Below, one piece after another: positions 52,601 to 55,788 of a stretch of 64,000 bases of DNA. A program made the translations under genes and the position numbers. The notes beneath the pieces are model-generated. The model did no database searches, was not told the DNA's origin, and saw only the letters and a list, made by a program, of their open reading frames with translations. How positions within the stretch are numbered: the first letter of the stretch is position 1; every line of letters starts with the position of its first letter. Source of the DNA: the human T2T-CHM13v2.0 reference genome, Homo sapiens; the NCBI RefSeq assembly GCF_009914755.1, contig NC_060947.1. One strand, 5' to 3'.

Positions 52601-53609
52601 CCCAAATCAACAGAATATACATTTTTTTCAGCACCACACCACACCTATTCCAAAATTGACCACATACTTGGAAGTAAAGCTCTCCTCAGCAAATGTAAAA
52701 GGACAGAGATTATAACAAACTATCTCTCAGACCACAGTGCAATCAAACTAGAACTCAGGATTAAGAATCTCACTCAAAACCGCTCAACTACATGGAAACT
52801 GAACAACCTGCTCCCGAATGACTACTGGGTACATAACGAAATGAAGGCAGAAATAAAGATGTTCTTTGAAACCAACGAGAACAAAGACACAACATACCAG
52901 AATGTCTGGGACGCATTCAAAGCAGTGTGTGGAGGGAAATTTATAGCACTAAATGCCCACAAGAGAAAGCAGGAAAGATCCAAAATTGACACCCTAACAT
53001 CACAATTAAAAGAACTAGAAAAGCAAGAGCAAACACATTCAAAAGCTAGCAGAAGGCAAGAAATAACTAAAATCAGAGCAGAACTGAAGGAAATAGAGAC
53101 ACAAAAAACCCTTCAAAAAATTAATGAATCCAGGAGCTGGTTTTTTTGAAAGGATCAACAAAATTGATAGACTGCTAGCCAGACTAATAAAAAAGAAAAG
53201 AGAGAAGAGGAAAATAGACACATTAAAAAATGATAAAAGGGATATCACCACTGATCCCACAGAAATACAAACTACCATCAGAGAATACTATAAACACCTC
53301 TATGCAAATAAACTAGAAAATCTCGAAGAAATGGATAAATTCCTGGACACATACACCCCCTGCCCCCAAGACTAAACCAGGAAGAAGTCAAATTCCTGAA
53401 TAGACCAGTAACAGGTTCAGAAATTCAGGCAATAATTAACAGCTTACCAACTGAAAAAAGCCCAGGGCCAGATGGATTCACAGCTGAATTCTACCAGAGG
53501 TACAAACAGGAGCTGGTACCATTCCTTCTGAAACTATTCCAATCAATAGAAAAAGAGGGAATCCTCCCTAACTCATTTTATGAGGCCAGCATCATTCTGA
53601 TACCAAAGC
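49695..53609 (-). mobile_element. Young L1PA2/PA3-like 5'-inverted (twin-primed) insertion: - strand 49695-52154 (RT and C-terminus), inverted + strand 52154-53609 (EN domain)
   Basis: Near-consensus ORF2 pieces (ORFs 49913-50515, 51113-52138 with LFADD, 52217-53149 with GDFN/SDH); 3'UTR gtgcgctgcacccactaactcg; degenerate TSD 49679-49694 / 53610-53625. Confidence 0.93.
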
Positions 53610-55788
53610 TGGTTTCTGTTTCTCTAATGACCAGTGATGATGAGCTTTTTTTCATGTTTGTTGGCTGCATAAATGTCTTCTTTTGAAAAGTGTCAGTTCA
53701 TATCCTTCACCCACTTTTTGAGGGGCTTGTTTTTTTTCTTGTAAATTTGTTTAAGTTTCTTGTAGATTCTGGAGATTAGCCCTTTTTCAGATGGATAGAT
53801 TGCAAACATTTTCTCCCAATCTGTAGGTTGCCTGTTCACTCTGATGATAGTTTCTTTTGCTGTGCAGAAGCTCTTTAGTTTAATTAGATCTCATTTGTCT
53901 ATTTTGGCTTTTGTTGCCATTGGTTTTGGTGTTTCAGTCATGAAGTCTTTGCCCATGCCTATCTCCTGAATGGTATCACCTAGGTTTTCTTCTAGGGTTT
54001 TTATGGTTTTAGGTCTTCCGTTTAAGTCTTTAATCCATCTTGAGTTAGTTTTGTACAAGGTGTAAGGAAGGGGTTCAGTTTCAGTTTTCTGCTTATGGCT
54101 AGCCAGTTTTCCCAACACCATTTATTAAATAGGGAATCCTTTCCCCATTGCTTGTTTCTGGCAGGTTTGTCAAAGATCAGGTGGTTGTAGATGTGTGGTG
54201 TTTATTTATAAGGCTTCTGTTCTGTTCCATTGATCTATATATCTGTTTTGGTATTAGTACAATGCTGTTTTGGTTACTATAGCCTTGTAGTATAATTCGA
54301 AGTCAGATAGCGTGATGCCTCCAGCTTTGTTTTTGCTTAGGATTGTCTTGGGTATATGGGCTGTTTTTTGATTTGATATGAAATTTAAAGTAGTTTTTTC
54401 TACTTCTGTGAAGAATGTTAATGGTAGCTTGATAGGGATATCATTGAATCTATAAATTACTTCGGGCAGTATGGCCATTTTCACGATATTGATTCTTCCT
54501 ATTTATGAGCATGGAATGTTTTTCCATTTGTTTTTGTCCTCTCTTGAGCAGTGGTTTGTAGTTCTTCTTGAAGAGATCCTTCACTTCCCTTGTAAGTTGT
54601 ATTCCTAGGCATTTTTTCTATTTGTAGCAATTGTGAATGGGAGTTCACTCATTATTTGGCTGTTTGTCTATTATTGGTATATAGGAATGCTTGTGATTTT
54701 TGCACATTGATTTCGTATCCTGAGACCTTGCTGAAGTTGCTAATCAGCTTAAGGAGATTTTGGGCTGAGACGCTGGGGTTTTTTAAATATACAATCGTGT
54801 CGTCTGCAAGCAGAGACTATTTGACTTCCTCTCTTCCTGTTTGAATACCCTTTATTTTCTTCTCTTGCCTGATTGCCCTGGCCAGAATTTCCAATACTAT
54901 GTTGAATAGGAGTGGTGAGAGAGGGCATCCTTGTCTTGTGCCGGTTTTCAAAGGGAATGCTTCCAGTTTTTGCCCATTCAGTATGATATCTGCTGTGGGT
55001 TTGTCATAAATAGCTCTTATTATTTTGAGATATGTTCCATTAATACCTTGTTTATGGAGAGTTTTTAGCATGAAGGGTTGTTGAATTTTATCAAAGGCCT
55101 TTTCTGCATCTATTGAGATAATCTTGTGGGTTTGGTCAATGATTCTGTTTATGTGATGGATTACATTTATTGATTTGTGTATGTTGAACTAGCTTTGCAT
55201 CTCAGGGATGAAACTGACTTGATGGTGGTGGATAAGCTTTTTGATTTGCTGCTGGATTCGGTTTGCCAGTATTTTATTGAGGATTTTCGCATCAATGTTC
55301 ATCAGGTATATTGGCCTGAAATTTTCTTTTTTTGTTGTTGTTTCTCTGCCAGGTTTTGGTAACAGGATGATGCTGGCCTCATAAAATGAGTTAGGGAGGA
55401 GTCCTTCTTTTTCTGTTGTTTGGAATAATTTCAGAAGGAATGGTACCAGCTCCTGTTTGTACCTCTGGTAGAATTCAGCTGTGAATCCATCTGGCCCTGG
55501 GCTTTTTTCAGTTGGTAAGCTGTTAATTATTGCCTGAATTTCTGAACCTGTTACTGGTCTATTCAGGAATTTGACTTCTTCCTGGTTTAGTCTTGGGGGC
55601 AGGGGGTGTATGTGTCCAGGAATTTATCCATTTCTTCGAGATTTTCTAGTTTATTTGCATAGAGGTGTTTATAGTATTCTCTGATGGTAGTTTGTATTTC
55701 TGTGGGATCAGTGGTGATATCCCTTTTATCATTTTTTAATGTGTCTATTTTCCTCTTCTCTCTTTTCTTTTTTATTAGTCTGGCTAGC
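53174..55788. repeat. Perfect 360-bp inverted repeat: arms 53174-53533 and 55429-55788, spacer 1895 bp
   Basis: Base-by-base comparison shows no mismatch across 360 bp, including private variants such as ccccctgcccccaag and gaggaaaatagacacatt. Confidence 0.93.

What the first reader, a model, noticed from the sequence alone, without database searches (positions are those of the whole stretch)
53174..55788. Perfect 360-bp inverted repeat from gene conversion between nested L1s of different ages
Seen: 53174-53533 is the exact reverse complement of 55429-55788. The shared tract carries the older host's private, frameshifting variants (ccccctgcccccaag; gaggaaaatagacacatt). Immediately outside the tract the left copy has young-L1 sequence (aaattgatagact; ctattccaatcaatagaaaaagagggaatc) and the two copies differ frequently. 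The spacer is not inverted: the young element's end, its TSD and the host are in their original order. Inference: host-to-insert non-allelic gene conversion through fold-back pairing. Zero mismatches, although both L1s carry many decay mutations elsewhere, imply it is recent or recurrent. The structure resembles a miniature self-homogenising X palindrome and could mediate a recurrent 1.9-kb inversion in CHIC1 intron 3. Alternatives: template switching at integration, two successive inversions, or an assembly error.
Basis: partly seen in the sequence, partly recalled or inferred. Interest (0 to 1): 0.8.

Follow-up and report, generated by a model that had tools for sequence, protein, structure and literature searches.

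The report
Old L1 overwrote nested young L1
A 360-base stretch of a young L1 retrotransposon that landed inside an older, oppositely oriented L1 was later overwritten with the old element's decayed sequence, a clean but ordinary example of gene conversion between neighbouring repeats in a CHIC1 intron.

Summary
53174-53533 is the exact reverse complement of 55429-55788. The surrounding L1 homology is only 86.8% identical, and its next longest perfect run is 34 bp.

Anatomy:
- An old antisense L1 occupies 49003-49694 and 53626 to at least 57636.
- It is interrupted by a young L1 at 49695-53609. This insert has the twin-priming form: poly(T) plus an antisense 3' part, then an inverted sense 5' piece at 52156-53609.
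- The insert is flanked by a 16-bp duplication matching at 13 of 16 bases.

Evidence for the transfer:
- Against 26 independent young-type L1 copies from the same genome, the insert is 98.0% and 98.4% identical in the two flanks but 87.5% in the tract, which is the host's level.
- At 169 informative columns it carries the young state at 131 of 133 outside the tract and the host state at 36 of 36 inside.
- A 26-mer spanning the host's 5-bp insertion occurs exactly twice in the 3.1-Gb assembly.

A single non-reciprocal host-to-insert transfer of 333-367 bp is therefore well supported. The route (break repair or replication template switch), recency, ongoing homogenisation and spacer inversion are not shown. 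A near-identical case is already in print (NCLI34, PMC1920257). This is a real new instance of a known process, of modest interest.

The parts
49003..49694 (-). Host (old) L1, 3' end, lying left of the insert.
   Evidence: Direct homology to the young L1's own 3' end (49713-50437, 80.8%) and to other L1 3' ends in the window. It ends at the left copy of the target-site duplication.
49679..49694 (.). Left copy of the 16-bp target-site duplication.
   Evidence: TGGTTTGCATTTCTCT at 49679-49694 against TGGTTTCTGTTTCTCT at 53610-53625, 13 of 16 identical. Both correspond to one site in L1 coordinates, judged against the young element's own sequence at 50400-50460.
49695..52154 (-). Young L1, poly(T) tail and antisense 3' part (ORF2 reverse transcriptase to 3' UTR).
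   Evidence: The poly(T) starts at 49695. Three contiguous same-frame ORFs of 243, 155 and 350 aa lie on the minus strand, separated only by stops. RVT_1 matches at E 8.8e-44. The part is 96.2-98.1% identical over about 1015 bp to young-type genomic copies.
52156..53609 (+). Young L1, inverted 5' piece in sense orientation (ORF2 codons about 38-519). This is the twin-priming segment and the recipient of the transfer.
   Evidence: The 315-aa open frame 52202-53149 aligns to human ORF2p residues 69-367 with 10 mismatches in 299. Exo_endo_phos domain found. About 10 codons are missing between this piece and the antisense part at the inversion point, by comparison with the host's ORF.
53174..53533 (+). 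Left arm: converted tract in the young L1 (minimum 53180-53512, maximum 53167-53533).
   Evidence: It is 100% identical to the host arm but 87.5% to 26 young-type copies, against 98.0% and 98.4% in the flanks. All 36 informative columns carry the host state. It covers ORF2p codons of about 377-494 and contains one frameshift.
53610..53625 (.). Right copy of the target-site duplication.
53626..55428 (-). Host L1 (reverse transcriptase region). Together with 53534-53625 it forms the non-inverted spacer.
   Evidence: Direct homology of 53619-55321 to the young antisense part 50431-52154, 88.4%. RVT_1 fragments lie on the minus strand, collinear with the arm.
55429..55788 (-). Right arm: donor stretch of the host L1.
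   Evidence: Its identity to 9 full-length host-type copies is 87.7%, against 88.4% and 90.4% in the host's own flanks. The tract is therefore native to the host.
55789..57636 (-). Remainder of the host L1 (endonuclease region and ORF1). It probably continues further right.
   Evidence: Inverted homology to the young piece runs to 56785. Exo_endo_phos is found at 56128-56505, and L1 ORF1 domains (Transposase_22, Tnp_22_dsRBD, Tnp_22_trimer) at 57075-57636. Sequence beyond 57636 was read but not tested.

Best explanation
A single non-reciprocal transfer (non-allelic, intrachromosomal gene conversion) copied 333-367 bp of an old, decayed antisense L1 into the homologous stretch of a young L1 nested inside it.

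The young element inserted by twin priming. Its 5' piece therefore lies inverted relative to its own 3' part, and so also relative to the host's homologous region 1.9 kb to the right.

Shown:
- the nesting and the twin-priming anatomy;
- the block-wise replacement;
- its direction, host to insert;
- its non-reciprocity;
- the neighbouring host copy as donor.

Inferred: a break or gap in the young piece was repaired by strand invasion and synthesis on the host arm (SDSA-type homeologous repair, at about 87.5% prior identity), some time after insertion. One event is sufficient.

The result is a 360-bp perfect inverted repeat deep in CHIC1 intron 3 with no evident function. The young copy also acquired the host's frameshift.

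On the confidence figure: 0.85 is for the shown core, a real post-insertion, non-reciprocal host-to-insert transfer. For break repair as the specific route, as opposed to a replication template switch, I would say about 0.55.
For: Anatomy:
- The direct and inverted homologies define a host L1 split by an insert that consists of poly(T) plus an antisense part plus a sense part.
- ORF2p and Pfam matches give the L1 coordinates.

Age contrast:
- The 949-bp young flank is 98-99% identical to 39 other genomic places (40 scored of 2200 candidates).
- The 981-bp host flank reaches at most 89% (40 scored of 10161 candidates).

Block replacement:
- The insert against 26 young-type copies is 98.0% (left flank), 87.5% (tract) and 98.4% (right flank). 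The host against the same copies is 86.5%, 87.5% and 89.1%.
- Informative columns show 131 young and 2 host states of 133 outside the tract, and 36 host states of 36 inside.

Donor identity:
- Of the 43 columns where the tract departs from the young-type majority, 22 are private or rare even among host-type copies, 16 are host-subfamily states and 5 are mixed.
- The 26-mer over the 5-bp insertion occurs only in the two arms of the 3.117-Gb assembly.
- The next best genomic match to the tract is 91% (40 scored of 3450 candidates).

Non-reciprocal: the host's tract is as far from host-type copies (87.7%) as its own flanks are (88.4% and 90.4%).

Tract length fits conversion tracts of a few hundred bp (passage in PMC3961182).

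Precedents:
- A truncated and inverted L1 with a 377-bp diverged middle segment, ascribed to later intrachromosomal gene conversion (passages in PMC1920257).
- Raised conversion between Alu copies less than 10 kb apart and on the sex chromosomes (passage in PMC6598467).
Against: - Prior identity of donor and recipient in the tract was only about 87.5%. The longest shared runs in the rest of the young-host homology are 34-46 bp. From recalled knowledge this is low for mammalian homologous repair, which favours more than 92-95% identity and perfect stretches of 130 bp or more.
- The sequence product cannot separate break repair from replication template switching.
- No unconverted allele or orthologue was seen, because no other human or ape assembly is held here.
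- Read-level support for the assembly at this spot could not be checked.
- The target-site duplication is imperfect (13 of 16), which is more than expected for an element with under 1% private change.
Confidence: 0.85

Rival explanations
1. Same outcome by a different route: a replication template switch (quasipalindrome correction). The nascent strand left the young piece, copied about 350 nt from the complementary strand of the host arm (or from itself, folded back), and returned. [quoted passage not shown]
For: - The product is exactly what the classic model predicts: a near-perfect inverted repeat becomes perfect and the spacer is unchanged (passages in PMC5453318).
- The tract is unbroken, 36 of 36 columns.
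- The switch intervals are short shared stretches, 53167-53179 and 53513-53533.
- The route needs only microhomology, which suits the low 87.5% prior identity.
Against: - Described human events are short and local. Screens allowed short ranges, and the longest event reported was 318 bp (passages in 10.1101/2021.11.26.470150).
- Here the copy is 333-367 bp and the template lies 1.9-2.6 kb away, beyond that range.
- No feature of the sequence specifically favours this route over break repair.
Confidence: 0.27
2. The patch was made during integration of the young L1. This could be by reverse-transcriptase or repair-polymerase template switching, or by annealing of the twin-primed cDNA to the resected host homologue next to the target site.
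For: - Integration creates a break with single-stranded intermediates 1.9 kb from a complementary host stretch.
- The converted piece is the twin-primed segment adjoining the target site.
- At the lower estimate of the insert's private divergence (9/2088), zero arm differences has P of about 0.045, which is not a strong rejection.
Against: - With 17/2088 private substitutions the expected number of arm differences is about 5.9, giving P of about 0.003.
- The tract is internal. 76 bp of young-type sequence (8 of 8 informative sites) lie between it and the target site, so two precise switches would be needed.
Confidence: 0.06
3. Assembly or polishing artefact: the tract in the left arm is not present in the real DNA.
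For: - Only one assembly could be examined.
- Repeats are where consensus errors occur.
Against: - The arms differ by about 13% outside the tract, and the whole 4.6-kb structure is shorter than a long read, so mis-placement of reads in the opposite orientation is unlikely (inference).
- Both boundaries are in register with the L1 homology, and the flanks are otherwise clean.
Confidence: 0.03
4. Ongoing, repeated arm-to-arm homogenisation with recurrent flipping of the spacer: a miniature palindrome.
For: - Zero differences in 360 bp.
- Recalled: a perfect 360-bp inverted repeat is above the minimal identity length for recombination.
- Conversion between nearby repeats is reported to be raised on the sex chromosomes (passage in PMC6598467).
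Against: - There is only one block.
- The remaining arm homology is 86.8% identical, and 131 of 133 informative sites are still young-type. The two host-like sites are isolated singletons.
- The spacer is in its ancestral orientation.
- True palindromes exceed 99.9% identity along whole arms (abstract of PMC3723533, listing).
Confidence: 0.06
5. Two successive inversions by crossover at different points within the arms.
For: The inverted homology could in principle support crossovers.
Against: - Reciprocal exchange would place the young-type segment in the host arm.
- Instead both arms carry the host-type sequence, and the host's tract is native to it.
Confidence: 0.01

Closest known systems
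Non-allelic (ectopic) gene conversion between neighbouring transposable-element copies. The closest case is L1 locus NCLI34 of Sen et al. 2007 (PMC1920257, passages seen). Alu-Alu conversion is reviewed in PMC6598467 (passages seen).
   Same: - A block of a few hundred bp of foreign, more diverged L1 sequence sits inside a truncated and inverted L1.
- The donor is on the same chromosome.
- The transfer is non-reciprocal.
- The copies are close together and on a sex chromosome.
   Different: - Here the donor is the very element into which the recipient inserted.
- Donor and recipient are inverted, 1.9 kb apart, and were only about 87.5% alike beforehand.
- The transfer runs from old to young and carries a frameshift into the younger copy.
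Twin-priming 5'-inverted L1 insertions (Ostertag and Kazazian 2001, cited in PMC12350158 and PMC1920257; original paper not read).
   Same: - A poly(A)-bearing 3' part and an oppositely oriented upstream piece.
- The two are contiguous in L1 coordinates apart from a small deletion at the inversion point.
- Target-site duplication around the whole insert.
   Different: - This explains only why an inverted homologue exists, not the perfect tract.
- The duplication here is imperfect (13 of 16).
Template-switch mutations / quasipalindrome correction (PMC5453318; 10.1101/2021.11.26.470150; passages seen).
   Same: [quoted passage not shown]
   Different: Published events are tens of bp up to 318 bp and local. 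This one is 333-367 bp with the template about 2 kb away.
Sex-chromosome palindromes kept identical by arm-to-arm conversion (for example Y palindrome P6, PMC3723533; abstract only).
   Same: Inverted arms on a sex chromosome with sequence identity caused by conversion.
   Different: - Palindrome arms are kb to Mb long and more than 99.9% identical throughout.
- Here only 360 bp of about 1450 bp of arm homology is identical, and a single event explains it.
Inverted-repeat-mediated polymorphic inversions (PMC3961182; passages seen).
   Same: An inverted repeat made of transposable-element copies flanks a short spacer.
   Different: - The validated cases listed in the passages seen have repeats of 1.6 kb or more.
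- No inversion was observed here.

Membership tests
Non-allelic gene conversion tract | A contiguous block of donor-specific variants in the recipient, with recipient-type sequence on both sides. | tested here: met
   Host state at 36 of 36 informative columns inside the tract. Young state at 131 of 133 outside. Boundaries lie within 53167-53179 and 53513-53533.
Non-allelic gene conversion tract | Non-reciprocal: the donor is unchanged. | tested here: met
   The host tract is 87.7% identical to 9 host-type copies, against 88.4% and 90.4% in its own flanks. Both arms carry the host type.
Non-allelic gene conversion tract | An identifiable donor locus. | tested here: met
   The host arm is 100% identical. 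The next best genomic match is 91%, among 40 scored of 3450 candidates. The diagnostic 26-mer occurs only in the two arms.
Non-allelic gene conversion tract | An unconverted ancestral state seen in an orthologue or another haplotype. | not testable with these tools
   No other human or ape assembly is held. The ancestral state was inferred from 26 paralogous young-type copies only.
Twin-priming 5'-inverted L1 insertion | A 3' part with poly(A) and an upstream piece in the opposite orientation, adjoining in L1 coordinates with a small deletion or duplication. | tested here: met
   Poly(T) at 49695. The antisense part runs to 52154 and the sense piece covers 52156-53609. About 10 codons are missing between the two, by comparison with the host ORF.
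Twin-priming 5'-inverted L1 insertion | A target-site duplication flanking the whole insertion. | tested here: inconclusive
   A 16-bp duplication is at the expected places, but only 13 of 16 bases are identical, with three adjacent mismatches.
Self-homogenising palindrome | Arms near-identical along their whole length. | tested here: not met
   Outside the tract the arms are 86.8% identical (944/1088).
Self-homogenising palindrome | Repeated conversion over time or across species. | not testable with these tools
   There are no orthologues or population data. Within this sequence one event is sufficient.
Short-range template-switch mutation | An imperfect inverted repeat made perfect in one step. 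| tested here: met
   The model is described in PMC5453318.
Short-range template-switch mutation | A short copied fragment with a nearby template, within the published size range. | tested here: not met
   The copy is 333-367 bp and the template is 1.9 kb or more away. The longest reported event is 318 bp.
Inverted-repeat-mediated inversion | The spacer is found in both orientations. | not testable with these tools
   Only one haplotype is available, and in it the spacer is in the ancestral order.

The most novel reading that the evidence does not exclude
The patch was written during integration itself. The twin-primed cDNA of the incoming L1, or the repair synthesis that completed it, used the resected homologous stretch of the host L1 1.9 kb away as a template. 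Retrotransposition into an older copy of the same family would then come with built-in conversion by the target. A related bold reading is that the 360-bp perfect repeat now toggles the 1.9-kb spacer in human populations.
Probability: 0.06. Interest if true: 0.55.

Novelty: new member of a known kind. Interest (0 to 1): 0.3.

Why it matters
- **A clean example.** It shows at base resolution that decayed repeats can overwrite younger neighbours. In a single step 43 alignment columns changed, including a 5-bp insertion that shifts the frame.
- **Unusual conditions.** The partners were only about 87.5% alike and 2 kb apart, which is outside the range usually quoted for homologous repair.
- **A caution for repeat dating.** The block raises the young element's apparent divergence over this piece from about 2% to about 4.5%. 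It could make annotation split the element into fragments of different subfamilies.
- **Limited biological consequence.** The event created a perfect inverted repeat that could in principle support inversion. The locus is deep in an intron, and no effect on CHIC1 is indicated.

Tried and rejected
- **Locus cut-outs.** As the message allowed, I then fetched 12 short stretches of 631 bp. Three of the 12 proved truncated copies and were left out of the identity means, though they were kept in the per-column counts.
- **Rows dropped.** These were L001, L002 and L031 (the window's own locus), L033 and L043 (duplicates of L004 and L007), and L015, L024 and L044 (which did not span the piece). That left 52 of 60 loci.
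- **Selection bias.** The reference copies are the best-scoring 40 of thousands of candidates per search, so they are biased towards little-diverged copies.
- **Other conversion patches.**
  - None was found in the direct young-host homology, where the longest run is 46 bp.
  - A 155-bp perfect run between the insert's 3' end and another L1 at 62384-63613 lies in a stretch with 2.5% mismatches. It is not significant.
  - Two isolated host-like sites in the insert (52364, 52815), and one in the antisense part (51354), are within chance expectation by my rough estimate of about 1 expected among 17.
- **Protein-level check of direction.** Against solved human ORF2p the contrast is weaker: 10 mismatches in about 117 residues in the tract, against 10 in 299 in the left flank, counted by eye.
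- **Literature.**
  - No paper in the searched library holds both 'CHIC1' and 'gene conversion'.
  - The CHIC1, inversion and inverted-repeat search required only 2 of 3 terms. Its 12 listed papers did not mention CHIC1, so it is not a strict absence test.
  - Supplementary tables of inversion catalogues were not examined and could list this locus.
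Full report
**Observation**

The window stretch 53174-53533 is, base for base, the reverse complement of 55429-55788 (360 of 360). The repeat finder reports it inside a 441-nt arm pair of 98% complementarity, 53167-53607 with 55355-55795. 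That pair is flanked by further inverted arms of 84-91%.

The whole inverted homology runs 52156-53607 against 56785-55355 (90.1% over 1453 columns). Outside 53167-53533 it is 944/1088 = 86.8% identical, and its next longest perfect run is 34 bp. In the direct young-host homology the longest run is 46 bp. A 360-bp run at the pooled 87.7% identity is expected about 1e-17 times. Among all 62 self-similar pairs of the window, no other pair shows a comparable anomaly. The next longest run, 155 bp, lies in a stretch with only 2.5% mismatches.

**Anatomy**

Self-comparison gives three relations:
- 50431-52154 is directly similar to 53619-55321 (88.4%).
- 52156-53607 is inversely similar to 56785-55355.
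- 49003-49694 is directly similar to 49713-50437 (80.8%).

ORFs, Pfam domains and alignments to solved human ORF2p add the L1 coordinates. Together they give one consistent map.

The host is an old L1 on the minus strand:
- 49003-49694 is its 3' end.
- 53626-55428 is its reverse transcriptase region.
- 55429-56785 runs through to the endonuclease region.
- ORF1 domains reach 57636.

The host is interrupted by a 3.9-kb L1 at 49695-53609:
- A poly(T) starts at 49695.
- An antisense 3' part runs to 52154. It holds three same-frame ORFs of 243, 155 and 350 aa, separated only by stops.
- A sense piece occupies 52156-53609, covering ORF2p codons of about 38-519.
- About 10 codons are missing between the end of the sense piece and the start of the antisense part, judged against the host's ORF.

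This is the form ascribed to twin priming, the mechanism cited for 5'-inverted L1 insertions in PMC12350158 and PMC1920257. The features of the model as I apply them are partly recalled.

A 16-bp duplication of the host sequence flanks the insert, at 49679-49694 and 53610-53625. It matches at only 13 of 16 bases, with three adjacent mismatches, which I cannot explain.

Because the 5' piece of the insert is inverted, it faces the host's homologous stretch in opposite orientation. There are 1747 bp between the 441-nt arms, or 1895 bp between the perfect arms.

**Ages**

The assembly that holds the window could be searched.
- The insert's pure flank (52202-53150) is 98-99% identical to 39 other places (40 scored of 2200 candidates).
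- The host's pure flank (55800-56780) reaches at most 89% (40 scored of 10161).
- The insert has 17 private substitutions in 2088 well-defined columns (0.81%). Nine of these are shared with none of the reference copies (0.43%).
- Its endonuclease-side ORF differs from solved human ORF2p at 10 of 299 residues.

I did not assign subfamily names, because no repeat library is available here. By recalled divergence scales the insert would be a late primate-specific L1 (of the order of L1PA2-L1PA3) and the host several subfamilies older.

**Direction and extent of the transfer**

I aligned the insert's sense piece and the host arm with 52 distinct genomic L1 copies. These were 26 and 26. The window's own three loci, two duplicates and three partial copies had been dropped first.

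| Segment | Insert vs 26 young-type copies | Host vs the same copies |
|---|---|---|
| Left flank | 98.0% | 86.5% |
| Tract | 87.5% | 87.5% |
| Right flank | 98.4% | 89.1% |

- At the 169 columns where the host differs from at least 85% of those copies, the insert has the young state at 131 of 133 outside the tract and the host state at 36 of 36 inside.
- The last young-type marker on the left is the 4-bp stretch 53163-53166, and the first host-type marker is 53180. On the right the last host-type marker is 53512 and the first young-type marker is 53534. The tract is therefore 333-367 bp long.
- Position 53173 (T in the insert, C in the host, T in 6 of 26 copies) is a CpG site and is uninformative.
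- Among the 43 columns where the tract departs from the young-type majority, 16 carry states common in host-type copies, 22 are private or rare even there, and 5 are mixed (12 host-type copies of which 3 are truncated). The 22 include the 5-bp insertion 53358-53362 and the three bases 53209-53211.
- The 26-mer across the 5-bp insertion occurs exactly twice in the 3.117-Gb assembly, once in each arm. The reversed control pattern occurs zero times.
- The best other match to the tract is 91%.
- The host's tract is as distant from nine full host-type copies (87.7%) as the host's flanks are (88.4% and 90.4%), so it is native to the host.

The transfer was therefore non-reciprocal and ran from host to insert, and the donor is the neighbouring host arm. 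A pair of inversions would have exchanged the segments and is excluded.

**Consequence for the insert**

The insert's ORF2 is open over 315 codons on the sense piece. Its antisense part is interrupted only by two stops. The frame changes twice near the tract:
- once at a private extra T in a T-run at 53141-53147, outside the tract;
- once at the imported 5-bp insertion.

**Timing**

If the patch were as old as the insertion, both arms would have diverged since. The expected number of differences is 2 x 360 x (0.0043 to 0.0081) = 3.1 to 5.9. None is seen, which gives P of about 0.045 to 0.003 (my calculation).

The transfer is thus probably later than the insertion. The data do not require it to be very recent or repeated. 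The 95% upper bound is roughly 0.5 to 1.0 of the insert's age.

**Route**

The sequence shows the product, not the route.

Break repair by synthesis on the nearby inverted homologue is the standard explanation. The precedents are:
- a chromosomal LINE break repaired from other LINEs (Tremblay et al. 2000, seen only as a reference in PMC1920257);
- locus NCLI34, a truncated and inverted L1 with a 377-bp diverged middle segment, ascribed to later intrachromosomal conversion (passages in PMC1920257);
- raised conversion between Alu copies within 10 kb and on the sex chromosomes (passage in PMC6598467).

The low prior identity (about 87.5%) and the unbroken tract fit a replication template switch equally well. 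That mechanism turns near-perfect inverted repeats into perfect ones (PMC5453318). This event would, however, exceed the sizes reported so far, the longest being 318 bp.

I rate break repair somewhat above template switching, and integration-coupled copying, artefact and ongoing homogenisation as minor.

**Comparison and verdict**

It is a new instance of a known kind, ectopic conversion between neighbouring repeat copies. Its tidy particulars are a donor that is the recipient's own host element, an inverted configuration created by twin priming, and an old-to-young direction.

It does not qualify as a self-homogenising palindrome, because the arms outside the tract are 86.8% identical. No inversion of the spacer is seen in this assembly.

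No paper in the searched library pairs CHIC1 with gene conversion. Supplementary inversion catalogues were not examined.

Noticed in passing
window 46545-48427: A second L1 with the twin-priming form lies just left of the host L1. An antisense 3' end at 46545-47506 matches 49701-50669 directly (84%). It is followed at once by a sense piece at 47507-48427, which matches 51592-50672 inversely (88%). The two pieces abut in L1 coordinates.
   Followed up: partly
window 49679-49694 and 53610-53625: The target-site duplication of the young L1 differs at three adjacent bases (GCA against CTG), although the element has under 1% private change. The left copy keeps the L1-like state, so the right copy changed, possibly in one multi-base event or at integration.
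   Followed up: partly
window 52344-52931: The insert's eight private substitutions on the sense piece lean towards G or C. Five change A or T to G or C, two exchange G and C, and one changes G to A. This is unlike ordinary CpG-driven decay. Some may be markers of its source lineage rather than later mutations.
   Followed up: no
window 52364, 52815, 51354: Three isolated sites where the insert carries the host's base instead of the young-type base. Young-type markers lie within 2-12 bp on both sides of the two sense-piece sites. By my rough estimate this is within chance, though very short conversion patches are not excluded.
   Followed up: partly
window 62384-63613: Another L1 3' end, 94.3% identical to the insert's 3' end. 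Mismatches are concentrated in the first 510 bp (about 10%) against 2.5% beyond, as expected for different subfamilies with fast-changing 3' UTRs.
   Followed up: partly
window 48940-49000: A (TA)n/(CA)n microsatellite sits where the host L1's poly(A) tail would be expected.
   Followed up: no
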